A DNA stretch of 64,000 nucleotides from an uncultured Altererythrobacter sp. Its GTDB lineage: Bacteria > Pseudomonadota > Alphaproteobacteria > Sphingomonadales > Sphingomonadaceae. The notes beneath the pieces were generated by a model that ran no database searches, had not been told where the DNA came from, and saw nothing but the letters and a program-made list of their open reading frames with translations. The DNA is taken from assembly GCA_913055875.1 (NCBI GenBank), contig CAJXJY010000007.1, positions 120,959 to 184,958 of the forward strand, written 5' to 3'. A program made the translations under genes and the position numbers. Positions 2 to 51,495 of the stretch are shown here, piece after piece. Position 1 is the first letter of the stretch; each line of letters starts with the position of its first letter.

Positions 2-2611
2 TTCGTCAATGCCGGCGGCGACGGCACGTTCGACGGCGATATCGCTGCGGCGGATGTGGTCCAGCTCGGTTTCGGAGGCGGGCTGATCGCGCAGGACCTG
101 TTCGCCGGGCAGGGGATCGAAGTCGAGACGGTCGACGATGCCGTGCTGGTGCGCGCCGAGGCGCAGAACGGCGCGGTCAATTTCAACGTCGGCGGCGATA
201 TAGCCGGGGCCGCGATCAGCAATCTGGGGTCGGGGGCCGGGCTCACCGGCGACGATGTCACGCTCAATGCGGGCGGCGATATCGACCTGTCGGCCGATAG
301 CGCGGCGTTCGGCGACTATACGGTCAACGCCGGCGGGGCTGTGCGGGCAGGCGATTTCGTCGCGGGCGGCACGCTCGACATTGCGGCGGACGATGTCGCG
401 ATCAGCGCCGGAATTGCCGACACGATCGCGATCGACAGCGCCAACGATATCCTGTTCGACCTGCTCCGCTCGCCCAATGCGATCGGGCTGGTTGCCAATA
501 ACGGCAGCATCGGCGCCAATACCGGCGCGGGCGATATCGACAGCGACGGCGACGTGACCCTGCTGGCGCAGACGATCGCCATCGGCGATATCCTGTCGGG
601 CGGTTCGGTCGATGCGCAGGCGACCGCCGGCGATGCGTCCTTCGGCACGGTCGAGGCCGCGAACGCCATCGCCATCGCCGCCGTCGGGACGCCGAGCGTG
701 GCCGAGGCGATCAGCGGCGGCGATACGACTATCACCGGCCAGTCGGTGTCGCTCGACAACGGCACGATCGGCGGCGATCTCACCCTCGACGCGACCGCCG
801 GCGATATCGACGGCAACGGGACCGTCACGGTCGGCGGCGGGATCGACTTCGACGCGACAGGCGATGTCGGCTTCGGCAGTCTCGATGCTCAGGGCGGCGA
901 TTTCACCGTCGATGCCGGCGGGGCGATCGCCTTCGTCGGCGCGACGGCGGCGGGGCTGATCGATTTCGACGCGGCCGGCGCGATCACGGGCGAAGACATC
1001 GAAGCCGATGGCGGCGTCGACCTGGCGTCGAGTGGTGGGGGCGATATCGCGGTCACCGGCATGGCGAGCGGCGCCGATATCGCCGCGCAGACGGGGGGCA
1101 GCTTCACCGCGGGGACGGTCGCCGCGAGCCAGGCGGGGAGCGGGCAAGTCGCGATCGCGGCCGCTGGGGGTATCGCGATCGATGTCCTCACCGGCAACGA
1201 CGCGACGCTCGACGCGGCGGGAGGCGCTGTCGCGGTGGCCGGGGATATCGATATCGCCGGCCAGGTCGCGGCGACGGGCCGGTCGGTGCTGCTGCGGTCG
1301 ACCAACGACCTGACCGCTGGCGCGCAGGCGACCGCCGGCGATGTGGATGTGGCGACGACCGGCAATCTCACCGTGCTCGGCGCCAATGCGAGCGGCGACG
1401 TGCTGCTCGGCGGGGCGAATGTGACGCTCGCCGACGATGCAAATGCGGCGGACCTGCTCGATATCGACGCGGCGGGGGTGCTTGCGATCCAGGCCGGCGC
1501 GCAGGGGGCCGATATCGATATCCTCGCCGGCGATATCGCGCTCGCTGCGGGGGGCGCGCTCGGAAGCGCCGCGACCCGGACGATAGCGATCGCATCCAAC
1601 GGCGATATCCTGCTCGGCGGGGCGGGCGGCAGCGGGGCCGGATTCGAGCTCGACAATGCCGAGGCCGCGCGCATCGCCAGCGGCGGCAGCGTCACTGTCT
1701 CCTCGCTCGGCGGGAACATGACTGTCGACGATCTCGATGTCGTCGCCGGGCAGGGCGGCCAGATTGCGACCGGGGGCGTATTGAACCTCGCCGCCAGTGC
1801 CGACATGCTGGTCATCGGCGGTGTTACGGTGGCGGGGGGGACGGCCGATACCGGCCTCGCGCTGACGGCAGGCAATACGCTCCGCATCGACACGGCTGCG
1901 GGCAACCTGCGGGTCGAGGATGCAAACGGCACAGCGACCGGAGCGATCGCGCTTGCCGCACAGCAGGTCCTCGCGGTCAGCGACGCCGCGCTGGCCGATA
2001 TCGCGGGCGCCGCTGTGGAGGATATCGACGCGCGCCTGGCGGAAAACGACGGCGTGATCCGCGACGAGGGTTTCATCCAGGCCTCGGCGCTAACCATCGC
2101 GGCGAGCGCAGGCGTGTTTATCCAGAACAGCGGCGCGGGCGACGATTTCGCCGACCGCCGCGGCTTCGCCGCCGATACGCTGACGATCGCCGCTCCGGCG
2201 GGCGCTGCGGGCGTGCCGGTCGCGATCAACGGCGTCGTCGGCGGGCTGACCGGGATCGACGCGATCGGTGCGGCGCAGGTCGGGCTCGATTTCGACGCCC
2301 TCTCCACCATCAACGGCTGCGTCATCGCCGATCCGGTCTCGTGCACCGTGGTGAACGTCGCCTTCGCCGACCAGAGCCGCGACCTGATCGAGGAGGAAAT
2401 CCGCGCGGACGGTGACGGTGACGGTGCGATGGGCGGGATCGACAGCGTGCTGATTGCTATCCGCGACGGTTCGGGACCGGGCGACGATCCGCTGATCGAC
2501 GACCCCGTGACCGGCGCGGGCAACGAGGATCTGTGGGCCGGGGATCGCGAATGCGATGAGGCCGCCGACGATAGCGGGTTGTGCCCCTCGGACGAGGGCG
2601 AGCCGCAATAG
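2..2611 (+). CDS. Large repetitive Gly/Ala/Asp-rich secreted or surface protein, 5' end outside window
   Basis: Frame is open from nt 2 (no stop before the listed GTG at 56) with the same composition. Degenerate GGD/AGGxI-type repeats throughout, acidic Cys-containing C-terminus. Confidence 0.6.
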   Translation, partial: FVNAGGDGTFDGDIAAADVVQLGFGGGLIAQDLFAGQGIEVETVDDAVLVRAEAQNGAVNFNVGGDIAGAAISNLGSGAGLTGDDVTLNAGGDIDLSADSAAFGDYTVNAGGAVRAGDFVAGGTLDIAADDVAISAGIADTIAIDSANDILFDLLRSPNAIGLVANNGSIGANTGAGDIDSDGDVTLLAQTIAIGDILSGGSVDAQATAGDASFGTVEAANAIAIAAVGTPSVAEAISGGDTTITGQSVSLDNGTIGGDLTLDATAGDIDGNGTVTVGGGIDFDATGDVGFGSLDAQGGDFTVDAGGAIAFVGATAAGLIDFDAAGAITGEDIEADGGVDLASSGGGDIAVTGMASGADIAAQTGGSFTAGTVAASQAGSGQVAIAAAGGIAIDVLTGNDATLDAAGGAVAVAGDIDIAGQVAATGRSVLLRSTNDLTAGAQATAGDVDVATTGNLTVLGANASGDVLLGGANVTLADDANAADLLDIDAAGVLAIQAGAQGADIDILAGDIALAAGGALGSAATRTIAIASNGDILLGGAGGSGAGFELDNAEAARIASGGSVTVSSLGGNMTVDDLDVVAGQGGQIATGGVLNLAASADMLVIGGVTVAGGTADTGLALTAGNTLRIDTAAGNLRVEDANGTATGAIALAAQQVLAVSDAALADIAGAAVEDIDARLAENDGVIRDEGFIQASALTIAASAGVFIQNSGAGDDFADRRGFAADTLTIAAPAGAAGVPVAINGVVGGLTGIDAIGAAQVGLDFDALSTINGCVIADPVSCTVVNVAFADQSRDLIEEEIRADGDGDGAMGGIDSVLIAIRDGSGPGDDPLIDDPVTGAGNEDLWAGDRECDEAADDSGLCPSDEGEPQ

Positions 2612-2678
2612 CGCCGGCAGGCGTCGCGCCGCCTTCGCGCTTGACCCGCCGCCCGCCGCCCGTGCACAGCGCCTCGCC

Positions 2679-4154
2679 ATGTCCGACACGCCCCTCAAGC
2701 TGTTCAACAGCCTGACCCGCCGCCTCGAACGCTTCGAGCCCGTCCATCCCGGCGAGGCGCGCGTCTATACCTGCGGACCGACGGTCTACAACTACCCGCA
2801 TATCGGCAATATGCGCGCCTACGTCTTCGCCGACGTGCTCGGGCGCACGCTGAGTTGGAAGGGCTACAAGCTCACGCACGTCATCAACATCACCGATGTC
2901 GGCCATTTGACCGACGATGCCGATGCGGGCGAGGACAAGCTCGAAAAGGCGGCGGCGGAGAAAGCGCAGTCGATCTGGGAGATCGCGCGGCACTACACCG
3001 AGGCCTATTGGGCCGACGTAAAGGCGCTCAATATCCGCAAACCGGCCAAGTGGTCGGTGGCGACCGACTATATCGACGAGATGATCGATTTCGTGCGGTC
3101 GATTCCCGAAAAACACCTCTACGAGATCGAAAGCGGCCTCTATTTCGACGTTTCCACGATCGAGGACTACGGTCGCCTGGCCCGCGCGGTGACCGAAGAG
3201 GGCGAAGGTCGGATCGAGACCGTCCAGGGCAAGCGCAATCCCGCCGATTTCGCCATCTGGCGCAAGACACCTGCCGGAGAAAACCGGCAGATGGAATGGG
3301 ACTCGCCGTGGGGGAAGGGAGCGCCCGGCTGGCACCTCGAATGCTCGGTCATGGGTTGGGACCTGCTCGGTTTTCCGTTCGATATCCATACCGGCGGGAT
3401 CGACCACCGCGAAATCCACCATCCCAACGAGATCGCGCAGAACCAGGCGTTTTGCGGCTACAAGTGTCTAGACGAAGCGAGCAAGTCGGGTGCGAACCTC
3501 TGGATGCACAACAATTTTCTCGTTGAGCGCTCGGGGAAGATGTCGAAGTCTTCGGGCGAGTTCCTGCGGCTGCAATTGCTGATCGACAAGGGCTACCATC
3601 CGCTCGCCTACCGCATGATGTGCCTCCAGGCGCACTACCGCAGCGAGCTGGAGTTTTCGTGGGAGGGACTACAGGCGGCGCTGGTACGGCTCAAGAGGAT
3701 CGTCAACAAGACTGAGGGCTTCCAGATGCCGCCCGGCGGCGTCCGACCTTCGCATCCCCGAGTCCAACCGATTCTCGACAAGTTCGACGCAGCTATGGCG
3801 GACGACCTCAATACTCCTGTCGCGCTGACCGCCTTGGAAGAGGCTCTGGCCCTGAAGAAGGTTGGAGAAGATTCGTTGGTCGAAGCCGTCGCATACATGG
3901 ATCGCGTGCTGGGACTCAGCCTGTCTCCGACTGGCACGAGGGACGAACTCGATCGCGTCGCGCTGCGGATACGTCCGAAAGATGCCGAGTTCACCGAAGC
4001 CGAAATCGAAGTTGCCCTTGCTCGCCGCAAGGAAGCGCGCGCGGCGAAGGATTTCGCCACTTCCGACTCGATCCGCGATGACCTCGCCGCCAAGGGCGTC
4101 GAAGTGATGGACGGCGACCCGCTCGGTTGGGAGTGGAAGCTGTCGGCGGACTAG
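2679..4154 (+). CDS. cysS: Cysteine--tRNA ligase
   Basis: MSDTPLKLFNSLTR..., HIGN (HIGH-type) and KMSKS motifs. ATG at 2679 chosen over the upstream in-frame start. Confidence 0.95.
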   Translation: MSDTPLKLFNSLTRRLERFEPVHPGEARVYTCGPTVYNYPHIGNMRAYVFADVLGRTLSWKGYKLTHVINITDVGHLTDDADAGEDKLEKAAAEKAQSIWEIARHYTEAYWADVKALNIRKPAKWSVATDYIDEMIDFVRSIPEKHLYEIESGLYFDVSTIEDYGRLARAVTEEGEGRIETVQGKRNPADFAIWRKTPAGENRQMEWDSPWGKGAPGWHLECSVMGWDLLGFPFDIHTGGIDHREIHHPNEIAQNQAFCGYKCLDEASKSGANLWMHNNFLVERSGKMSKSSGEFLRLQLLIDKGYHPLAYRMMCLQAHYRSELEFSWEGLQAALVRLKRIVNKTEGFQMPPGGVRPSHPRVQPILDKFDAAMADDLNTPVALTALEEALALKKVGEDSLVEAVAYMDRVLGLSLSPTGTRDELDRVALRIRPKDAEFTEAEIEVALARRKEARAAKDFATSDSIRDDLAAKGVEVMDGDPLGWEWKLSAD

Positions 4155-6476: not shown

Positions 6477-6842
6477 CTACGCGTCCTCGAGCAGCAGGAC
6501 TTCACATTCGACCAGCAGGCGCGGGTGGGGCAGCAGTTCGTGCTCGACCGCAGCGACGGTGGCGTCGGCGACCAACTGTCCGGGTATCGCGAATTCGTGC
6601 TCGGGCAGGTCGGCAATCAGGCCTTCGCCCGCCTCGACCGCGCCATCGCCATCGAACACCAGCCGCATGATGTGCCGCGTGCCCGCGAAGGTGATACTCG
6701 CCCATGCTTTCTCGACGTGGTGGACGATATCGCCATGGCCACCGGCCAGCGCGCGCACCGCGTCGCGCAGCTTTTCGGCGACCGATCGCGGCTGCCTGCG
6801 TGCGGTATTCGTGGCATCGGGCGACAGAAAATCAGCGCGCAT
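6477..6842 (-). CDS. Hypothetical protein, second gene of a small operon divergent from the S24 repressor
   Basis: 121-aa ORF whose ATG overlaps the upstream 62-aa gene by 11 nt. No recognisable domain. Confidence 0.5.
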   Translation of the reverse strand: MRADFLSPDATNTARRQPRSVAEKLRDAVRALAGGHGDIVHHVEKAWASITFAGTRHIMRLVFDGDGAVEAGEGLIADLPEHEFAIPGQLVADATVAAVEHELLPHPRLLVECEVLLLEDA

Positions 6843-7020
6843 CGCATTGCTCCCGGAATATGTTCATGAAATGTTCCACTCGCTTTTCCATTCGCCGGCG
6901 CGGCATGCGGCCGTTGCGCAGGTCGAGGACGAAGCGCGGATCGTTGGTCGCAAGGCGCCCGAACTTGGTCGCGGGCATGTCGTGCTCGCGCAGGAATTTC
7001 TCGATTGTCCGTATCAGCAT
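6832..7020 (-). CDS. Small basic hypothetical protein, possible Cro-like DNA binder
   Basis: 62 aa, MLIRTIEKFLREHDMPATKFGRLATNDPRFVLDLRNGR. Divergent from the CI-like repressor. Confidence 0.5.
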   Translation of the reverse strand: MLIRTIEKFLREHDMPATKFGRLATNDPRFVLDLRNGRMPRRRMEKRVEHFMNIFREQCDAR

Positions 7021-7075
7021 GGAATCCTCTGTTGGCAGGTCGAGTCGCTGTCCGTGCCGCGAGTCGTCGCAAGCG

Positions 7076-7119
7076 AAATCCTACTTGTCTAGGAAAATTC
7101 CTACGTATATATAGGAAAT
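7076..7119. promoter_or_regulatory. Operator-like cluster of four alternating TCCTA/TAGGA half sites
   Basis: TCCTA 7079-7083, TAGGA 7090-7094, TCCTA 7099-7103, TAGGA 7112-7116. AT-rich, ends 3 nt before the repressor ATG. Confidence 0.55.
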
Positions 7120-7776
7120 ATGGATAACCGAAGCGATACCCCCGAGCCCCGCCGGCGCCTGCTCGATCTGGCGCGCGAAAGCGGGGCGAGCCTTGCCGGC
7201 CTGTCCGAGCTGATCGGGCGCAACCCGAGCTACTTGCAGCAATTTATCCGCAAGGGCAGCCCGCGTCGGCTGGAGGAGCGCGATCGCCGGATCCTTGCCG
7301 AGTTCCTCGGCGTCGCCGAATCCGAACTCGGTGCGCCCGAAGAAAAATCCTACAATCCTGGAGAAAAACCGCCGCAGGACTGGTCCGAAGTATCGCGGCT
7401 TGCGCTGGGCGCTTCGGCCGGGCCGGGGGCTTTCGCCGGTGACGAAGGTGCCTTCGACACGATCCGCTTCTCGCGCCGCTGGCTGCGCGAGATGGGACTG
7501 GAGGGCGCCGACCTCAGCGCGATCCGGGTCGAGGGCGACAGCATGGAGCCGCTGCTGCGCTCGGGCGACGAGATTTTCGTCGACCGGAACAAGCGCGCGG
7601 GCGAGGGTATCTTCGTCGTCCGTATCGGCGATGCGCTCCACGTCAAGCAGGTCCAGGCGAGCGCGCCCGGCCGTATCGCGCTGATCAGCGCCAATGAGGC
7701 CTACGCGCCGATCGAACTCGCGCGCGAGGAGGTCGAGGTGATCGGAAGGGTGGTGTGGAAGGGAGGGCGGGTGTGA
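7120..7776 (+). CDS. XRE-family HTH plus S24 peptidase repressor (CI/LexA-like)
   Basis: N-terminal HTH. C-terminal VEGDSMEPLL...HVKQV gives the Ser/Lys dyad of self-cleaving S24 repressors. Confidence 0.85.
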   Translation: MDNRSDTPEPRRRLLDLARESGASLAGLSELIGRNPSYLQQFIRKGSPRRLEERDRRILAEFLGVAESELGAPEEKSYNPGEKPPQDWSEVSRLALGASAGPGAFAGDEGAFDTIRFSRRWLREMGLEGADLSAIRVEGDSMEPLLRSGDEIFVDRNKRAGEGIFVVRIGDALHVKQVQASAPGRIALISANEAYAPIELAREEVEVIGRVVWKGGRV

Positions 7777-43405: not shown

Positions 43406-43819
43406 TTATTTGTCCACCCCCTTGACCTTCCCCCATTGCCGCGCGGCGGTGTAGCCAAGATAGCCGGTCCCGAACAGCGCGTAGAGCGGTTCGGGCAGGC
43501 CGTTGAGATAGGCGTTCATGCCCGCGGCGATGTCCTTCGCGACCGGCGGGTTGAAGGCTGCGAGCACGCCCATCGGCAGCGCGAACAGTAGCAGCGTGTA
43601 CATCACATAGAGGAAGCTCGGCCGTGCGCGGCTGGTCCAGGGGTCGTTGCTGTTGGCCTCGGCCACGATCGCCGACAGCCGCGCTTCGATCTGCGCGAGG
43701 TCCTGCGACCCTTCGAGCCGGAGCAGTTCGAGCTTGGCCTTGGCGCGCGCTTCCTTGTCGGGGATGATCTTGTCGATAATCGAGGAAATCGGGCCGATAA
43801 GCGATTCGAGTAGGGGCAT
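43406..43819 (-). CDS. 3TM holin of the gene-transfer-release type (GTA/phage holin)
   Basis: MPLLESLIGPISSIIDKIIPDKEARAKAKLELLRLE..., then hydrophobic segments and a basic tail. Matches my recollection of that Pfam family. Confidence 0.7.
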   Translation of the reverse strand: MPLLESLIGPISSIIDKIIPDKEARAKAKLELLRLEGSQDLAQIEARLSAIVAEANSNDPWTSRARPSFLYVMYTLLLFALPMGVLAAFNPPVAKDIAAGMNAYLNGLPEPLYALFGTGYLGYTAARQWGKVKGVDK

Positions 43820-43862: not shown

Positions 43863-43890
43863 GGTTATTGTAGGAAAATGAAAAATCCTA
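43863..43890. promoter_or_regulatory. 26-nt AT-rich promoter/operator box upstream of the holin
   Basis: The reverse complement of 43863-43888 (GGATTTTTCATTTTCCTACAATAACC) matches 49836-49861 at 24/26 positions. Contains TACAAT. TAGGA 43871-43875 and TCCTA 43886-43890 form an inverted pair. Confidence 0.65.
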
Positions 43891-47083: not shown

Positions 47084-48067
47084 ATGCGACTGCTCAAACT
47101 CGTCCCCGACGATACCAATATCAAGTTCCTCAAATGGCGCCTGCCGTTCTACGTCGTCAGCTGCCTGCTGATCGCTGCGAGCTGGGGCCTGGTGCTGACC
47201 AAGGGGCTCAATTACGGCGTCGATTTCGCCGGCGGCCAGGAAGTGCGGCTGACCTTCGAGCAGCGCAAGGAAGCGCCCATTCCGGCGCTGCGCGAGCTGG
47301 TCGGCGGGCTCGGCTACGGCACGCCGGTGGTGCAGGAATTCGGCGAGGCCAACCAGGTCTCGATCCGCGTGCGCCTGCCCGAGGAGGCCGAGGGCGTGCC
47401 GGGGGCGGCAACCGAGATCGGCAATCAGGTCATCCGGACCATCGAGGGCGAATATCCCGCCGTCCGCCGCGACGGCAACGACACCGTCTCGGGCAAGGTC
47501 GCGAGCGAGTTCCGCAGCGATGCGGTGCTGGCGCTGGTGCTCGCGATGCTCGGCGTGGCGCTGTATATCTGGATCCGGTTCGAATGGCAGTTCGGGGTCG
47601 GCGCGCTGTTTGCGCTGTTCCACGACGTTTCGCTCACGCTCGGCATGTTCGCGCTGTTCCAGATGGAATTCAGCCTCCAGATCATCGCCGCGATCCTCGC
47701 CATCATCGGCTATTCGCTCAACGATACGATCGTCGTCTACGACCGCATACGCGAGAATTTGAAGAAATACCGCAAGATGCACCTGCCCGAACTGCTCGAC
47801 CTGTCGGTCAACGAGACGCTCGCGCGCACGGTGATGACCTCGCTGACGCTCGCCGTCGCGCTGATCCCGCTGCTGTTCTTCGGCCCGGCGAGCCTGTTCG
47901 GGCTGACCGCGGCGATCTTCCTCGGGCTGGTGGTCGGCACCTACAGCTCGGTCTACATGGCCGCGCCGATGCTGATCTGGCTCGGCGTCAATTCGGACAG
48001 CTTCGTTCCGGAAGAGACGATCGCCGACAAGCAGGAAGCGGCCGCCCGGCGAATGAGCGAGGGCTAG
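47084..48067 (+). CDS. secF: Protein translocase subunit SecF
   Basis: NYGVDFAGGQ..., SLNDTIVVYDRIRE motif. Confidence 0.95.
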   Translation: MRLLKLVPDDTNIKFLKWRLPFYVVSCLLIAASWGLVLTKGLNYGVDFAGGQEVRLTFEQRKEAPIPALRELVGGLGYGTPVVQEFGEANQVSIRVRLPEEAEGVPGAATEIGNQVIRTIEGEYPAVRRDGNDTVSGKVASEFRSDAVLALVLAMLGVALYIWIRFEWQFGVGALFALFHDVSLTLGMFALFQMEFSLQIIAAILAIIGYSLNDTIVVYDRIRENLKKYRKMHLPELLDLSVNETLARTVMTSLTLAVALIPLLFFGPASLFGLTAAIFLGLVVGTYSSVYMAAPMLIWLGVNSDSFVPEETIADKQEAAARRMSEG

Positions 48068-49242
48068 GCAATCAGCCGGTCATAGTAGTCGGCGAGCCTC
48101 TCGCCGTTCGCCTTCCAGTCGAATTGAGCCACGGTGGCTGCGACACGCTCCTGCGGGATCGGGTTGTCGAGCACGCGCCGGATGCCCGCAGCGATGGCGT
48201 CGGTCGTGCGCTCGACCAGCACCCCTGCATCGGGCGAGGTGACGAGTTCGCGCACTCCGCCGACATCGGTGGTGACCAGCGGCGTCCCGCAGGCGAGCGC
48301 CTCTACCCAGGCATTGGCCAGCCCCTCGCTGCGCGTGGGCAACACCATTGCGTTGGAGGCCGACAGCACCACCGGCAGCATGTCGTGGTCGAGCAGGCCG
48401 ACGAAATGCACCCGGTCGGCGACGCGCAGGTCCTCCGCCAGCCGGCGCAGATGCGCCTCGTCCTCGCCCTTGCCGACCAGCATCAGGTGGGCGTCGGGAA
48501 TCGAGGCGAGCGCGCCGATGGCGAAATCCTGCCCCTTGCGCTCGATCAGCGCGCCGACGCAGCACAGCAGCGGCTTGTGCTCGGGCAATGAAATGCCGAG
48601 CGCGTCGCCGAGCGTTCGGCGCATGCCTTCGTAGGCCATCGGCCGGAACAGGTCGCGGTCGAGCCCGGTATAGTGGATGGTGATCTTGCGCCGATCCATG
48701 CCCAGATCGGCCATGTCGCTCGCGATCTGCCTGGACACTGCGAGCAGGCCTGCGGCGCGGTCGGCCGCGTCGAGCATCTGGTCCTCGGCGAAGTCCTTGC
48801 CTCCCCAATAGGAGATGTCCGCCCCGCGCGCCTTGATCGAGAAGGGCAGGCCGAGCCTGTCGGCGATCCACGCCGCCGCCGGGCCGTCGGGATAGAAGAA
48901 CTGCGCATCGACGAGGTCGAACGGGGTCTCGGCGTGGAGCCGCTCGGCGAGCGGCAGCACCTTGCGCGCGATGGCGCCGGGATTGATCCGCGCACCGAGG
49001 CGCGGGATCAGCGTGAATTTGGGCCGATGGACCTCGACCCCGTTCTCCACCCCGTCGACCGCGGCCTCGGCCAGGGCGCGATAGCGGCCGAACAGGATCG
49101 GCGGGACGCCGATCGGATTGACCAGCGTGACGTGCCAGTCGCCGCGCGCCGCCAGCGCCTCGAGCGAGCGCGCGACGAAGATGCCGAAACGCGGCGTCGA
49201 GGCGTTGGGATACAGCGTCGAGAGCGACAGGACGCGCTTCAC
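48064..49242 (-). CDS. Glycosyltransferase family 4
   Basis: GTG at 49242 (VKRVLSLSTLYPN...). C-terminal E..G....EA.ACG.P GT-B motif. Start overlaps the stop of the XRE gene. Confidence 0.8.
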   Translation of the reverse strand: MKRVLSLSTLYPNASTPRFGIFVARSLEALAARGDWHVTLVNPIGVPPILFGRYRALAEAAVDGVENGVEVHRPKFTLIPRLGARINPGAIARKVLPLAERLHAETPFDLVDAQFFYPDGPAAAWIADRLGLPFSIKARGADISYWGGKDFAEDQMLDAADRAAGLLAVSRQIASDMADLGMDRRKITIHYTGLDRDLFRPMAYEGMRRTLGDALGISLPEHKPLLCCVGALIERKGQDFAIGALASIPDAHLMLVGKGEDEAHLRRLAEDLRVADRVHFVGLLDHDMLPVVLSASNAMVLPTRSEGLANAWVEALACGTPLVTTDVGGVRELVTSPDAGVLVERTTDAIAAGIRRVLDNPIPQERVAATVAQFDWKANGERLADYYDRLIA

Positions 49243-49811
49243 AATTTGCGCACCAGCATTTCCGCGACCGCGATCCATGCCGGGTCGTCGACCACCTGCT
49301 GTTTCTCTCCGCTGCCAGGTGGCAGAATGCCGACCAGTTTGCCCTGCCGGTCGATCAGCCGCCCGAAGGCGAAACGACCGCCCTTTCTGGGCACGAGCAC
49401 GTCGCGGTTGATCGCGCGTTGTGCGTCGCCGGGATCGAGCTGGCGCAGCCACAGCTGGTCGCCGGCGCAATAGGGGCCTGCGGCGGCCTCGATCGCCAGC
49501 ACCATCAGCGGCCCGTCGCCGCCGAGATCGGTCGGCAGGATCGCATCGCGCGTTTTTGCGAGCGCCTCGGGCCCCGACGCCTCGAGCGTGGCGACGATTT
49601 GCGGATGCCCGGCCTTTTCGGAGCGCACCAGCGTTTCGGGATCGACCCCGAGCGCCGCGCCGATGCGGTCCATCCACTTGATCGACAGATTGCGCATGCC
49701 CGTTTCGAGCCGGCCGATCGTCTGCGCGGTGGTCGGCGGATCGCATGCCTCGGCGAGGTCGGCCAGCGTCCAGCCCTTCTCCTTGCGAATGTCGCGAATG
49801 CGATTGATCAC
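49239..49811 (-). CDS. XRE-family HTH regulator with degenerate (non-catalytic) S24/LexA-like C-terminal domain
   Basis: INRIRDIRKEKGWTLADLAE HTH. The C-terminal beta-rich domain aligns by eye to S24, but AAAGPY replaces GDSMEP. GTG start. Confidence 0.7.
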   Translation of the reverse strand: MINRIRDIRKEKGWTLADLAEACDPPTTAQTIGRLETGMRNLSIKWMDRIGAALGVDPETLVRSEKAGHPQIVATLEASGPEALAKTRDAILPTDLGGDGPLMVLAIEAAAGPYCAGDQLWLRQLDPGDAQRAINRDVLVPRKGGRFAFGRLIDRQGKLVGILPPGSGEKQQVVDDPAWIAVAEMLVRKL

Positions 49812-49835
49812 GCGCTCTCTCTCGGTAACCTTTTT

Positions 49836-49861
49836 GGTTTTTTCACTTTCCTACAATAACC
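49836..49861 (+). promoter_or_regulatory. 26-nt AT-rich promoter/operator box in the divergent region
   Basis: GGTTTTTTCACTTTCCTACAATAACC, 24/26 identical to the holin box. TACAAT at 49852-49857. AACC-n5-GGTT inverted repeat at 49827-49839. Confidence 0.65.
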
Positions 49862-49909
49862 GCATGAATGCAAGACCATCGATACGTCGAATCGACCGAT
49901 GGAGGCACG

Positions 49910-50383
49910 ATGCAACGCAAACTGGCCGAACGCGAGCTGACCGAGGAGGGGCCGCGCAGGAGCAACGGAGCACGGAAAAGGCGCCGCAGCGTTACCGTGA
50001 ACCTCGCCGAATCGCCGCTCGCCTGGCTCCATGCGCGCGGGCATCTCGACGATCGGCTGTTCGATGCGGGCGAGCGGCTGCGCGCCGATTACGAACGCGC
50101 GCAGCTCGGCCCCAACGTGACCATGCGGTGGGACCCGGTGCGGGTGAAGACGACCGGCGATACCGGCCTGTCGCCGACCGAGCGGCAGATCGCCGCCAAG
50201 GATCGCTTCGACGGCGCGCTCCGCGAGGCGGGCAAGGGGCTGCAGGATATTCTCTGGCGCGTGGTGTGCGGCTGCGAGAGCCTGCCCGCGGCGGAGAAGG
50301 CGCTCGACTGGCCGGCACGCAGCGGCAAGCTGGTGCTCAGGCTGGCGCTCGACCGGGTGGCGGATTTCTACCGGATCGGGTGA
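49910..50383 (+). CDS. DUF6456-like protein (possible DNA-binding regulator)
   Basis: ATG at 49910 preceded by GGAGG (49901-49905). LAESPLAWLHARG...AGERLRADYE pattern as recalled for DUF6456. The listed ORF starts at 49868, only 6 nt after the box. Confidence 0.55.
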   Translation: MQRKLAERELTEEGPRRSNGARKRRRSVTVNLAESPLAWLHARGHLDDRLFDAGERLRADYERAQLGPNVTMRWDPVRVKTTGDTGLSPTERQIAAKDRFDGALREAGKGLQDILWRVVCGCESLPAAEKALDWPARSGKLVLRLALDRVADFYRIG

Positions 50384-50430: not shown

Positions 50431-50844
50431 ATGTGGCGCGTGGTGGTGGCATATGGAGCGGGACTGGCGGCCGTGGCGATGCTGCTCGAATACATGCAGT
50501 ATCGCCACCTGATCCGGTCGCTGCAGACAGAGACCTATATCGTCGTGCTGGCCGTGGTGTTCGTCGGCATCGGGCTGTGGGTGGGGATGCGGATCAACCC
50601 GTCGCCGGCCGGCGAGCCGTTCGAACGCAATGTTCGCGCGGTGGCTTCGCTCGGCCTGACGGCGCGCGAATGCGAAGTGCTCGAATGCCTGGCGCGCGGC
50701 GAATCGAACAAGGAGATCGCGCGCGCGATGGAAGTTTCGCCCAATACGGTGAAGACGCACGTCGCCAATCTCTACGCCAAGCTCGGCGTATCGGGCCGGG
50801 GCAAGGCGGTGGAGGCGGCGCGCGCGCTGGCGCTGATCCCTTGA
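50431..50844 (+). CDS. Membrane-anchored LuxR/GerE-family transcriptional regulator
   Basis: Two N-terminal TM helices, then LTARECEVLECLARGESNKEIARAMEVSPNTVKTHVANLYAKLGV. Confidence 0.7.
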   Translation: MWRVVVAYGAGLAAVAMLLEYMQYRHLIRSLQTETYIVVLAVVFVGIGLWVGMRINPSPAGEPFERNVRAVASLGLTARECEVLECLARGESNKEIARAMEVSPNTVKTHVANLYAKLGVSGRGKAVEAARALALIP

Positions 50845-50958
50845 TTCGGGGGGCGATCGCCCGTGAAAACGGACTATTCGACCCAATTCACCCACATGGG
50901 TGATAGCATTTCGCGCAATTCTCCGGCCTGTCCGGCTTCCTTGGAAAGGAGAACGGCC

Positions 50959-51495
50959 ATGTTTCGATACGCAGCAATTTACGGCGCGATCGCCGGCACG
51001 GTGATCATCGCCACGATGACCCTCGTGCTGACGCTGGGGGGCGACGAGGATTACGGTTTCAGCGAGGTGATGGGCTACCTCGTCATGCTCGCCGTGCTGT
51101 CGCTGATCTTCATCGGCATCAAGCGCTACCGCGACATCGAGAAGGGCGGGGTGATCAAGTTCGCCCCCGCTTTCGGACTCGGCCTCGCCATCACCGCGGT
51201 CGCGGGCGTGTTCTATGTCATCAGCTGGGAAATCTACCTCGCCTCGACCGACTACGCCTTCATCGACAGCTACAGCGAGAGCATGATCGCGAGCATCGAG
51301 GCGAAGGACCTGCCGCCCGACGAACGCGCAGCGGAGATCGCCGAGGTCGAGTCCTCGCGCACGCTCTACGGCAATCTGCCGTTCCGGCTGATGATCACCT
51401 TCATCGAGATCTTCCCGGTCGGGCTGCTGGTGGCGCTGGTATCCGCCGCGCTGCTGCGCAACCCGCGGCTGCTGCCGGCGCGCAAAGCGGCCTAG
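50959..51495 (+). CDS. DUF4199-like multi-pass membrane protein
   Basis: ATG at 50959 behind AAAGGAGAA. MFRYAAIYGAIAGTVIIA..., four hydrophobic segments. Confidence 0.55.
   Translation: MFRYAAIYGAIAGTVIIATMTLVLTLGGDEDYGFSEVMGYLVMLAVLSLIFIGIKRYRDIEKGGVIKFAPAFGLGLAITAVAGVFYVISWEIYLASTDYAFIDSYSESMIASIEAKDLPPDERAAEIAEVESSRTLYGNLPFRLMITFIEIFPVGLLVALVSAALLRNPRLLPARKAA

What the first reader, a model, noticed from the sequence alone, without database searches (positions are those of the whole stretch)
49239..50383. Phage-style divergent switch (XRE/pseudo-S24 repressor versus DUF6456-like gene) whose promoter box recurs in front of a distant holin
Seen in sequence:
- 49239..49811(-) encodes an XRE HTH fused to a LexA/CI-like C-terminal domain. 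Where the paralog at 7120..7776 has the catalytic GDSMEP, this protein reads AAAGPY, and I can find no Ser/Lys dyad. It therefore looks like a non-cleavable repressor.
- Its stop overlaps by 4 nt the GTG of a family-4 glycosyltransferase (48064..49242), an odd operon partner.
- Divergently, 49910..50383 (ATG behind GGAGG) encodes a DUF6456-like protein, followed by a membrane-tethered LuxR-type HTH.
- The 26 nt at 49836-49861 (GGTTTTTTCACTTTCCTACAATAACC) match the reverse complement of 43863-43888 at 24 of 26 positions. Both copies have the same orientation relative to the downstream gene, sit at similar distances from its ATG (48 and 43 nt), and contain a TACAAT -10-like hexamer.

An AT-rich 26-mer recurring this closely in a GC-rich 64-kb window is very unlikely by chance.

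Inference: one regulator pair controls both loci. That would make this a dispersed, domesticated phage- or GTA-derived module (repressor, activator, lysis gene, surface-modifying glycosyltransferase). Published GTA systems are also multi-locus and have dedicated activators and repressors. Whether these proteins are related to them cannot be judged by eye.
Basis: partly seen in the sequence, partly recalled or inferred. Interest (0 to 1): 0.8.

Follow-up and report, generated by a model that had tools for sequence, protein, structure and literature searches.

The report
Gene transfer agent master switch, regulon promoter
This is the on/off control locus of a gene transfer agent (a domesticated phage) in a sphingomonad bacterium, and the repeated "box" is a strongly conserved promoter that marks the scattered lysis, DNA-packaging and fibre-like genes of that agent across the whole bacterial order.

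Summary
The 26-mer occurs twice in the window (24/26 identical, none expected by chance), both times aimed at the downstream gene. The divergent pair is a RogA-like repressor (XRE HTH plus a LexA/CI-fold domain without the Ser/Lys dyad) facing a GafZ-type activator (Pfam DUF6456). The distant gene is a GTA holin (PF11351).

The box is part of a composite motif, CAYTTTCCTACA-NN-AACC-N5-GGTTA.
- GTA holins (69 sites)
- stand-alone small terminases (38)
- GH108 endolysins (9)
- fibre-like or unknown genes (a few)

All named genome hits are Sphingomonadales. The gafZ promoter keeps the box but carries the palindrome upstream, next to the repressor gene.

The repressor-gaf linkage recurs in other alphaproteobacterial lineages, there with gafY-gafZ-sufE. 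The repressor-GT4 operon is conserved within the order. The LuxR-like gene is not conserved.

This is the Sphingomonadales version of the Caulobacter RogA/GafYZ and Rhodobacter GafA circuits. It has no adjacent gafY, but it has a sharply defined regulon promoter, which those models lack.

Not shown: which protein binds which element, and whether the head-tail cluster carries the box.

The parts
49239..49811 (-). rogA-like repressor gene (190 aa): an XRE HTH (residues 1-61) plus a LexA/CI-fold C-terminal domain without the Ser/Lys dyad
   Evidence: Pfam HTH_3. AlphaFold model with Foldseek hits to 186/lambda CI and LexA C-domains. No invariant Ser in the C-domain. About 80% identical across Erythrobacteraceae. 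36% identical (E 6e-26) to a homologue that lies divergent to gafY-gafZ in another lineage.
48064..49242 (-). Family-4 glycosyltransferase, translationally coupled (GTGA overlap) to the repressor gene
   Evidence: Pfam Glycos_transf_1 / Glyco_trans_4. It lies immediately downstream of the repressor in every Sphingomonadales locus examined, including Novosphingobium. It is absent from the homologous loci of other lineages.
49826..49839 (.). Palindrome TAACC-N5-GGTT (PAL) in the divergent intergenic region, 15 nt upstream of the repressor start codon and 4 nt upstream of the box
   Evidence: TAACC and GGT are invariant in 11 distinct rogA-like/gafZ intergenic regions. AACC-N5-GGTT occurs only twice in the window.
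49844..49861 (+). Box CACTTTCCTACA-AT-AACC of the gafZ promoter. It is followed by N8-GCAAG (49870-49874) in place of the GGTTA half-site.
   Evidence: CTTTCCTACA is conserved in all 11 intergenic regions. The distance to the ATG is the same as at regulon promoters.
49910..50383 (+). gafZ-type activator gene (157 aa, DUF6456)
   Evidence: Pfam DUF6456, E 1.6e-41. 36% identical to the 291-aa DUF6456 protein of a gafY-gafZ-sufE locus. The C-terminal ~60 aa of the model resemble sigma region 4, but only weakly. DUF6456 = GafA/GafZ per PMC9638019 and PMC9765227.
43854..43880 (-). Complete regulon promoter motif CATTTTCCTACA-AT-AACC-ATTTT-GGTT in front of the holin gene
   Evidence: The same composite motif precedes holins in 69 other loci.
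43406..43819 (-). GTA holin (137 aa, 3 TM), a stand-alone gene between housekeeping genes (HpcH-type lyase and aroQ/accBC)
   Evidence: Pfam GTA_holin_3TM, E 2.7e-30. PHROG 3427 holin, E 2.7e-27. Gene context.
50431..50844 (+). Membrane-anchored GerE/LuxR-type HTH gene. It is a neighbour, probably not part of the module.
   Evidence: GerE hits. It is present only in contigs of the window's own species and absent downstream of gafZ in other genera.

Best explanation
The locus is the master switch of an RcGTA-type gene transfer agent in an Erythrobacteraceae (Sphingomonadales) genome. A non-cleavable CI/LexA-like repressor (RogA-like) is transcribed divergently from a GafZ-type activator across a 98-bp control region. 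The activator gene and the dispersed GTA accessory genes share one activator-dependent promoter type. Here that means the holin 6 kb away. In relatives it also includes a GH108 endolysin, a stand-alone small terminase and fibre-like genes.

That promoter type has two elements. The first is a 12-bp asymmetric box, CAYTTTCCTACA, at roughly the -35 position. The second, at the accessory genes, is the palindrome AACC-N5-GGTTA, which overlaps the spacer and -10 region.

Proposed working (inferred):
1. In most cells the dimeric repressor occupies the palindromes. This keeps gafZ and the accessory promoters silent, and the upstream palindrome at its own gene lets it autoregulate.
2. An unknown signal, not RecA-type self-cleavage, relieves repression.
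3. GafZ then binds the box through its sigma-region-4-like domain, recruits RNA polymerase, reinforces its own synthesis and fires the whole regulon.
4. The outcome is particle release by holin and endolysin.

Shown here: the gene identities, the order-wide conservation, the orientation, fixed spacing and gene-family specificity of the motif, and the cross-lineage linkage of the repressor family to gaf genes.

Not shown: who binds which element, the transcription start sites, and the inducing signal.
For: Gene identities:
- Pfam calls for the HTH, DUF6456 and GTA holin domains.
- Repressor model and fold matches.
- No catalytic Ser among orthologues.

Literature:
- DUF6456 = GafA/GafZ (PMC9638019, PMC9765227).
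- RogA = HTH + S24-like domain lacking catalytic residues. It directly represses gafYZ through inverted repeats (PMC9632790).
- GafZ has a sigma-like HTH, and a palindrome between -35 and -10 is needed for it (PMC11150451).

Motif in genomes:
- 48 continue as N5-GGTY. Of these, 45 are in named Sphingomonadales and 3 in unclassified MAGs.
- Their downstream genes are 27 holins, 12 small terminases (PHROG 4044, E down to 5e-21), 5 of the 'MPxP' small or 350-aa family, and 1 GDSL-like gene.
- The gap to the ATG is mostly 25-41 nt.

Motif in metagenomes: 42 holins, 26 small terminases, and 9 endolysins carrying GH108 + PG_binding_3.

Position-specific conservation extends beyond the searched bases: T21, T23 and A28, plus an A-rich tract upstream.

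No canonical sigma-70 promoter is found in either control region of the window.

Linkage:
- gafZ <> rogA-like-GT4 synteny in all Sphingomonadales loci examined.
- Homologues at 32-36% identity sit divergent to DUF6456, or to Bac_DnaA_C + DUF6456 + sufE, in other lineages.
Against: - No binding or expression data exist for any Sphingomonadales GTA.
- Homology of the repressor to Caulobacter RogA (CCNA_00080) could not be tested directly. That sequence was not obtainable, and the published survey does not list Sphingomonadales among the RogA-rich orders.
- In Caulobacter, RogA binds only two sites, and the palindrome between -35 and -10 is the GafZ element. By that analogy the palindrome here could be the activator site rather than the operator.
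- The sigma-region-4 similarity of the GafZ model is not statistically significant (Foldseek E >= 1.7).
- No gafY was found next to gafZ, although GafY is required in Caulobacter. An unlinked GafY-type protein could be the real box reader, because the box matches the DnaA-box consensus TTWTNCACA at 7 of 9 positions (my own comparison).
- No head-tail structural cluster was recognised downstream of any of the motif sites sampled, so control of the main cluster by this motif is unproven.
Confidence: 0.72

Rival explanations
1. Same module, opposite assignment of sites. The palindrome AACC-N5-GGTTA would be the GafZ binding element, analogous to the Caulobacter ZBE that lies between -35 and -10. 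The asymmetric box would be read by something else, such as RNA polymerase itself or an unlinked GafY/DnaA-domain-IV-type activator. The RogA-like repressor would act only at the gafZ/rogA intergenic region.
For: - In Caulobacter the GafZ element is a near-perfect palindrome between -35 and -10. GafZ occupies only promoters that have it, while RogA has just two genomic binding sites (PMC11150451; PMC9632790 and its S3 Fig legend).
- The palindrome occupies the same relative position here.
- The box matches the DnaA-box consensus TTWTNCACA at 7 of 9 positions (own comparison). The GafA N-terminus and GafY are DnaA-domain-IV-like (PMC9638019).
Against: - No gafY-like gene lies next to gafZ in any Sphingomonadales locus, and none was found by tblastn in the window or the fetched loci.
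- The gafZ promoter lacks the downstream palindrome but keeps the box. That fits box = autoactivation site more simply.
- A palindrome suits a dimeric CI-like repressor. A homologous locus in another lineage has a GGT/ACC-type palindrome (TTTGGT-N4-ACCAAA) beside the repressor gene.
Confidence: 0.2
2. The XRE/pseudo-S24 protein is a regulator of the co-transcribed glycosyltransferase (envelope polysaccharide), and its adjacency to gafZ is synteny without function. The box would then be the promoter of an unrelated regulator or alternative sigma factor that happens to control phage-derived genes.
For: - The regulator-GT4 operon is conserved with overlapping stop and start codons.
- No experimental link exists between this protein and GTA genes.
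- The motif also occurs in two prophage-like contigs.
Against: - Across lineages the conserved neighbour of this protein family is a gaf gene, not a GT4.
- The intergenic region contains both motif elements with invariant spacing.
- The architecture matches published RogA (PMC9632790).
Confidence: 0.05
3. The 26-mer is a generic dispersed repeat or a chance recurrence without regulatory meaning.
For: AT-rich intergenic words can recur in GC-rich genomes. Near-matches of TTTCCTACA (<=1 mismatch) number 10 in the window against 2.2 expected.
Against: - 0 of 100 shuffles give a second copy.
- In more than 150 independent loci the motif is intergenic, co-oriented with and at a fixed distance from the downstream gene, and restricted to a handful of phage-derived gene families.
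- Hits outside Sphingomonadales lack the GGTT extension.
Confidence: 0.01

Closest known systems
Caulobacter crescentus RogA / GafY-GafZ control of CcGTA (Gozzi et al. 2022, PMC9632790; Tran & Le 2024, PMC11150451)
   Same: - The repressor has an XRE HTH plus a LexA/CI-like domain lacking the catalytic residues.
- The activator is of the DUF6456/GafZ family.
- The regulon is dispersed and multi-locus, and includes a stand-alone homeodomain/small-terminase-like gene and a fibre gene.
- A palindrome lies between -35 and -10 of the target promoters.
- Inverted repeats lie in the gaf promoter.
   Different: - Here the repressor is adjacent and divergent to gafZ. In Caulobacter the two are unlinked.
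- No gafY lies in the locus.
- One sharply conserved 27-bp motif marks all the accessory promoters. No GafY/GafZ consensus could be derived in Caulobacter.
- Holin and endolysin genes are recognisable regulon members here. Caulobacter has no recognisable holin or endolysin and lyses by another route.
- The repressor is co-transcribed with a GT4.
- Sequence orthology to CCNA_00080 was not tested.
Rhodobacter capsulatus GafA (Fogg 2019; Sherlock & Fogg 2022, PMC9638019)
   Same: - The DUF6456 domain is homologous to the GafA C-terminal DNA-binding region.
- The activator promoter is implied to be autoregulated.
- The activator controls unlinked holin/endolysin, fibre and packaging genes.
   Different: - GafA is a 382-aa fusion with an N-terminal DnaA-like domain and a central Rpo-omega-binding region. 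The protein here is 157 aa with only the C-terminal module.
- RcGTA has its small terminase inside the head-tail cluster. Here that gene stands alone.
- No RogA-type repressor is known for RcGTA.
Hyphomicrobiales-type gafY-gafZ-sufE loci with an upstream HTH/mucR regulator (Sherlock & Fogg 2022, Fig. S2 description)
   Same: Homologues of the window's repressor (32-36% identity) sit divergent to the gaf operon in such loci.
   Different: Those loci keep gafY (Bac_DnaA_C) and a longer GafZ (~290 aa), and have sufE and mucR as neighbours with no GT4. Their control regions do not contain the Sphingomonadales box.
Temperate-phage CI-type immunity switches (lambda CI, phage 186 CI)
   Same: - Divergent repressor and lytic-activator genes flank a short operator-bearing region.
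- The repressor has the HTH + CI/LexA-fold dimerisation architecture. The best structural matches are 7jvt, 2fjr and 2ho0.
   Different: - There is no catalytic dyad, so there is no RecA-stimulated self-cleavage.
- The element cannot propagate itself.
- Its targets are scattered over the chromosome among housekeeping genes.

Membership tests
RogA-type GTA repressor | N-terminal XRE/Cro-CI helix-turn-helix | tested here: met
   Pfam HTH_3 E 1.1e-9 and HTH_31. Five-helix N-terminal domain in the model.
RogA-type GTA repressor | C-terminal LexA/CI-like (S24-fold) domain lacking the catalytic Ser/Lys | tested here: met
   Foldseek hits 7jvt, 2fjr, 2ho0, 8gms and 6a2s (E 6e-7 to 4e-4, TM to target 0.5-0.64). 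No Pfam S24 hit. No invariant Ser among 30 orthologues. AAAGPY and FGRLI stand in place of GDSMEP and HVKQV.
RogA-type GTA repressor | Sequence homology to Caulobacter RogA (CCNA_00080) | not testable with these tools
   The RogA sequence could not be retrieved. It is not in the paper or its supplements. Homologue lists carry no Caulobacter names.
RogA-type GTA repressor | Functional or genomic association with gafYZ / GTA genes | tested here: met
   Divergent to gafZ in all Sphingomonadales loci. Homologues are divergent to DUF6456 or to Bac_DnaA_C + DUF6456 in other lineages.
RogA-type GTA repressor | Direct binding to inverted repeats in the gaf promoter and repression of it | not testable with these tools
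   A conserved TAACC-N5-GGTT palindrome is present in the control region. Binding and repression need experiments.
GafZ / GafA C-terminal family (DUF6456) | Match to Pfam DUF6456 over the whole domain | tested here: met
   E 1.6e-41, profile positions 2-135 of 136. 36% identity to a gafY-linked DUF6456 protein.
GafZ / GafA C-terminal family (DUF6456) | Sigma-factor region-4-like HTH | tested here: inconclusive
   Model pLDDT 71.9. The best local matches are -35-binding domains of SigD, SigL and sigmaE (TM to target 0.67-0.88 over ~60 aa), but Foldseek E >= 1.7.
GafZ / GafA C-terminal family (DUF6456) | Partner GafY (DnaA-domain-IV-like), adjacent or fused | tested here: not met
   No Bac_DnaA_C gene lies next to gafZ in the window or in L001, L003, L006, L008 and L010. 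No tblastn hit in the window or the fetched loci. An unlinked copy elsewhere in the genome is not excluded.
GafZ / GafA C-terminal family (DUF6456) | Activates or anti-terminates GTA gene transcription | not testable with these tools
   Support is indirect only: its promoter shares the box with holin, endolysin and small-terminase promoters.
GTA holin (PF11351) | Match to GTA_holin_3TM over full length | tested here: met
   E 2.7e-30, profile 2-123 of 123. PHROG 3427 holin.
LexA / S24 self-cleaving repressors | Ser-Lys catalytic dyad and Ala-Gly cleavage site enabling RecA-stimulated autoproteolysis | tested here: not met
   No conserved Ser, and the Lys position is an invariant Arg151. No Pfam or NCBIfam S24 hit.

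The most novel reading that the evidence does not exclude
Sphingomonadales may run their gene transfer agent with a minimal two-protein switch: a RogA-like repressor and a GafZ-only activator, with no GafY. The switch would act on one uniform 27-bp promoter placed in front of every dispersed GTA gene.

The repressor is translationally coupled to a glycosyltransferase that may build the surface polysaccharide used as the GTA receptor. If so, the 'producer-off' state would be hard-wired to 'recipient-competent'.

The same promoter type may also drive an undescribed ~400-nt structured RNA and several unknown particle proteins.
Probability: 0.2. Interest if true: 0.75.

Novelty: new variant of a known kind. 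Interest (0 to 1): 0.6.

Why it matters
GTAs are widespread in Alphaproteobacteria, but their control is understood only in Rhodobacter and Caulobacter. In neither could a binding consensus for the activator be derived.

Here a near-invariant promoter signature spans an entire order. That has three consequences:
- GTA regulons become computable in hundreds of genomes.
- The motif immediately nominates new GTA components: a stand-alone small terminase, a GH108 endolysin, a ~140-aa family with a GDSL-like partner, and a possible ncRNA.
- It offers a clean system to separate activator and repressor sites by mutagenesis.

Sphingomonadales are reported to show the strongest selection on GTA genes (PMC9765227), yet their GTAs have not been studied experimentally.

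Tried and rejected
- **Viral contig scans.** Scans of IMG/VR with the box gave only low-GC chance hits or two prophage-context sites. No Sphingomonadales GTA cluster was recovered.
- **Head-tail cluster.** None of the motif sites sampled is followed by a recognisable large terminase, portal or capsid gene. The small-terminase genes always stand alone. I had no GTA structural protein to use as a query, so the cluster promoter could not be examined.
- **Caulobacter RogA sequence.** It was not in the paper's supplements. Representative, cluster and homologue searches carried no organism names that identify it.
- **Paralogy with 7120-7776.** Rejected.
- **TACAAT as -10.** Rejected on conservation. 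Sigma-70 consensus scans find no promoter in either region.
- **LuxR-like gene as GafY substitute.** Rejected. It is not conserved outside the window's own species.
- **gafY in the window or the fetched loci.** Not found.
- **Rfam.** No match for the ORF-less region behind a motif variant.
- **CtrA box, ECF and sigma-54 readings of the motif.** Considered by eye and dropped, because spacing and half-sites do not fit.
- **The repeat finder on the control regions.** Its limits are too strict for 4-6-nt half-sites, so I replaced it with a script.
Full report
**1. The observation**

The two 26-mers are real. 49836-49861(+) and 43863-43888(-) match at 24 of 26 positions. They are the only hits in 64 kb at up to 3 mismatches, and no shuffle produced a second copy. 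The core TTTCCTACAAT is likewise unique to these two sites. Both copies face the downstream gene, with 48 and 43 nt between the 26-mer and the ATG.

The gene calls also hold:
- 49239-49811(-) carries an XRE HTH.
- 49910-50383(+) is DUF6456 (E 1.6e-41).
- 43406-43819(-) is GTA_holin_3TM (E 2.7e-30).
- 48064-49242(-) is a family-4 glycosyltransferase whose GTG overlaps the repressor's TGA as GTGA.
- 7120-7776(+) is a true S24 protein with GDSMEP.

**2. The two regulators**

*The repressor.* An AlphaFold model (pLDDT 84.9) has a five-helix HTH and a C-terminal beta domain. The best PDB matches of that domain are a lambda-186 hybrid repressor, phage 186 CI, the lambda CI C-terminal fragment and LexA C-domains (E 6e-7 to 4e-4). 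Pfam and NCBIfam see no S24 domain. Among 30 orthologues no Ser is invariant in the C-domain, and the Lys position is an invariant Arg. This is exactly how Caulobacter RogA is described: an HTH plus a LexA/cI-like autopeptidase domain lacking the key residues, and a direct repressor of gafYZ (PMC9632790).

*The activator.* DUF6456 is the annotation carried by GafA homologues and corresponds to GafZ, the C-terminal part of GafA (PMC9638019, PMC9765227, PMC9632790). The GafZ-like model (pLDDT 72) has a C-terminal ~60-aa bundle. Its best local matches are sigma region-4 '-35-binding' domains, but without statistical significance. That is consistent with, though does not prove, the published sigma-like HTH of GafZ (PMC11150451).

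The S24 protein at 7120-7776 is not a detectable paralogue.

**3. Organism and synteny**

The repressor and GafZ proteins are ~80% identical across Pelagerythrobacter, Qipengyuania, Erythrobacter, Altererythrobacter and Aurantiacibacter. The window is therefore from Erythrobacteraceae (Sphingomonadales).

- The arrangement gafZ <> repressor-GT4-secF-secD-yajC is conserved in P. marensis, E. litoralis HTCC2594 and Qipengyuania.
- The repressor-GT4 pair also holds in Novosphingobium.
- The holin lies within 4-9 kb in many of these loci.
- The LuxR/GerE gene downstream of gafZ exists only in contigs of the window's own species.
- No gafY (DnaA-domain-IV-like) gene is adjacent.

**4. What the box is**

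An alignment of gafZ and holin upstream regions from four genera reduced the 26-mer to an invariant core, C(A/T)YTTTCCTACA-NN-AACC.

In 48 of them the sequence continues as N5-GGT(T/C). Of these 48, 45 are in named Sphingomonadales (Novosphingobium, Sphingomonas, Sphingorhabdus, Erythrobacter, Qipengyuania, Porphyrobacter, Citromicrobium, Croceicoccus-type relatives and others) and 3 are in unclassified MAGs. Hits in other phyla lack the extension.

The genes behind these 48 sites are:
- 27 GTA holins
- 12 stand-alone small terminases (PHROG 4044, E 5e-21 to 1e-14)
- 3 members of a ~140-aa 'MPxPxI...LPLPV' family, plus 2 proteins of ~350 aa with a related N-terminus
- 1 GDSL-lipase-like protein of 454 aa
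- 3 unresolved

The ATG lies mostly 25-41 nt after GGTT. In two loci the 140-aa gene is followed by a GDSL-like gene.

It gave 42 holins, 26 small terminases and 9 endolysins, plus 2 of the 140-aa family, 1 GDSL-like gene, some singletons and a few low-GC chance hits. The endolysins carry Glyco_hydro_108 (E 2e-26) plus PG_binding_3.

*Conservation beyond the searched bases.* Conservation extends to positions that were not part of the search pattern: T at +21 and +23, A at +28, T-rich at +29 to +31, and an A-rich tract at -3 to -1.

The motif is thus a regulon-type promoter for phage-derived genes scattered among housekeeping genes, not a generic repeat.

**5. Architecture of the two promoter classes**

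- *Accessory genes:* CAYTTTCCTACA-NN-AACC-N5-GGTTA(T/C)nT, then ~30 nt, then the ATG.
- *gafZ* (11 distinct intergenic regions): repressor start codon - ~15 nt with the Shine-Dalgarno - TAACC-N5-GGTT - N4 - CnCTTTCCTACA - NN - AACC - N8 - GCAAG - ~35 nt - gafZ ATG.

The box-to-ATG distance is the same in both classes. At gafZ, however, the complete palindrome lies upstream of the box, against the repressor gene. Downstream of the box only the left half-site survives.

If the -10 is the TATnT just after GG (compare the Caulobacter GTA -10, TATCTTT; PMC11150451), then TTTCCT sits at the -35 position and the palindrome covers the spacer and the -10 edge. No sigma-70 consensus promoter is detectable in either control region of the window, as expected for activator-dependent promoters.

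**6. Linkage beyond the order**

A sensitive search shows a rather small family: 232 representatives at E <= 1e-10. Members at 32-36% identity to the window protein, aligned over both domains (E 6e-26), lie divergent to one of three things:
- a DUF6456 gene (L147)
- a Bac_DnaA_C gene next to sufE (L148)
- a complete gafY (Bac_DnaA_C) - gafZ (DUF6456, 291 aa) - sufE operon with mucR nearby (L285 and L286)

The last is the Hyphomicrobiales-type synteny described by Sherlock & Fogg, who noted an upstream 'helix-turn-helix' regulator. The conserved partner of this repressor family is therefore a gaf gene. The GT4 is a Sphingomonadales-specific addition.

**7. Mechanism**

*Best-supported reading (inferred).* The dimeric, non-cleavable CI-like repressor binds the palindromes, and GafZ binds the asymmetric box at -35 through its sigma-4-like domain. 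GafZ thereby activates itself and all accessory promoters. Repression is lifted by a signal other than RecA-mediated cleavage.

*Main rival.* The palindrome is the GafZ element, as the ZBE is in Caulobacter, and the box is read by another factor, possibly an unlinked GafY-type protein. The box matches the DnaA-box consensus at 7 of 9 positions (my own comparison).

The data here cannot separate the two readings. Slightly favouring the first:
- The gafZ promoter keeps the box but not the downstream palindrome.
- gafY is absent from the locus.
- A GGT/ACC-type palindrome lies beside the repressor gene in a distant homologous locus.

**8. Limits**

- No head-tail cluster was recognised behind any sampled motif site, and none could be fetched for inspection.
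- Orthology to CCNA_00080 is untested.
- There is no expression or binding evidence.

**9. Novelty**

The kind of system is known: the RogA/GafYZ and GafA circuits. A gafA homologue in Sphingomonadales was already noted computationally (PMC9765227). I found no paper describing any of the following (literature searches):
- a Sphingomonadales GTA promoter motif
- the divergent repressor-gafZ arrangement in this order
- its operon with a GT4
- the regulon membership listed above

The finding is therefore a new variant of a known kind, with practical value for predicting regulons.

Noticed in passing
L152:12667-13098(-), L154:1933-2364(-), L172:337-768(+), L233:225-656(-), also L234 and L169 (metagenome contigs): A variant of the promoter, preceded by CCCCC instead of AAACAY, is followed by ~400 nt without an ORF, and the next gene is convergent. 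The stretch has conserved blocks. RNAalifold gives a long-range closing helix and 19 of 54 pairs with compensatory changes in at least one of the 4 sequences. No Rfam family matches at E <= 1. It may be an undescribed RNA under GTA-type control.
   Followed up: partly
window 7021-7119: The control region between the S24/LexA-like repressor gene (7120-7776 +) and a divergent 62-aa ORF (6832-7020 -) carries inverted repeats built from TTCCTA/TAGGAA half-sites: ATTTCCTATATATACGTAGGAAT and TTCCTAGACAAGTAGGA. TTCCTA is the same hexamer as in the GTA box TTTCCTACA. It could be a second, SOS-type phage-like switch. Any cross-talk with the GTA box is unknown.
   Followed up: partly
L097:3066-7187, L132 (reverse orientation) 2000-3775, L115, L122, L068, L117, L167: Unannotated gene families sit directly behind the regulon promoter. 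They are a ~140-aa protein ('MPxPxI..GY...LPLPV'), often followed by a 420-530-aa GDSL/SGNH-hydrolase-like protein and in one case by a 693-aa protein; a ~350-aa relative; and an 89-aa + 809-aa pair. Apart from weak GDSL-lipase matches for the GDSL-like protein, they have no Pfam or PHROG match. They are candidate GTA fibre, spike or receptor-degrading proteins.
   Followed up: partly
L062 and L110 (both Sphingomonas sp. SMAG_U5820): One genome has two different stand-alone small-terminase-like genes (246 and 255 aa), each behind the full motif.
   Followed up: no
L268:5058-5080 and L271:3573-3595 (IMG/VR contigs, GC 0.67 and 0.63): The full motif also occurs in prophage contexts. In L268 it lies at the end of a Mu/P2-like baseplate/tail module after a Dam methylase gene. 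In L271 it lies between an XRE-like gene and phage genes with HNH endonucleases. This hints that phages of these hosts use, or donated, this promoter type.
   Followed up: partly
window 50431-50844 (+) and 50863-51495 (+): A GerE/LuxR HTH protein with two predicted N-terminal membrane segments, followed by a DUF4199 membrane protein, sits between gafZ and a UDG-family gene. The LuxR-like gene is present only in this species' contigs, so it looks like a recent insertion next to the switch.
   Followed up: partly
L006:19103-19620 (Pelagerythrobacter marensis): A YefM/YoeB toxin-antitoxin pair is inserted between the GTA holin and aroQ. It is absent at the same place in the window.
   Followed up: no
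L285:3940-3955 and the L285/L286 gafY leaders: In gafY-gafZ-sufE loci of another lineage the control region has a TTTGGT-N4-ACCAAA palindrome near the repressor gene, and a shared GTCTGGTAGAnCTTTnTCC block just upstream of gafY. These are lineage-specific operator candidates.
   Followed up: no
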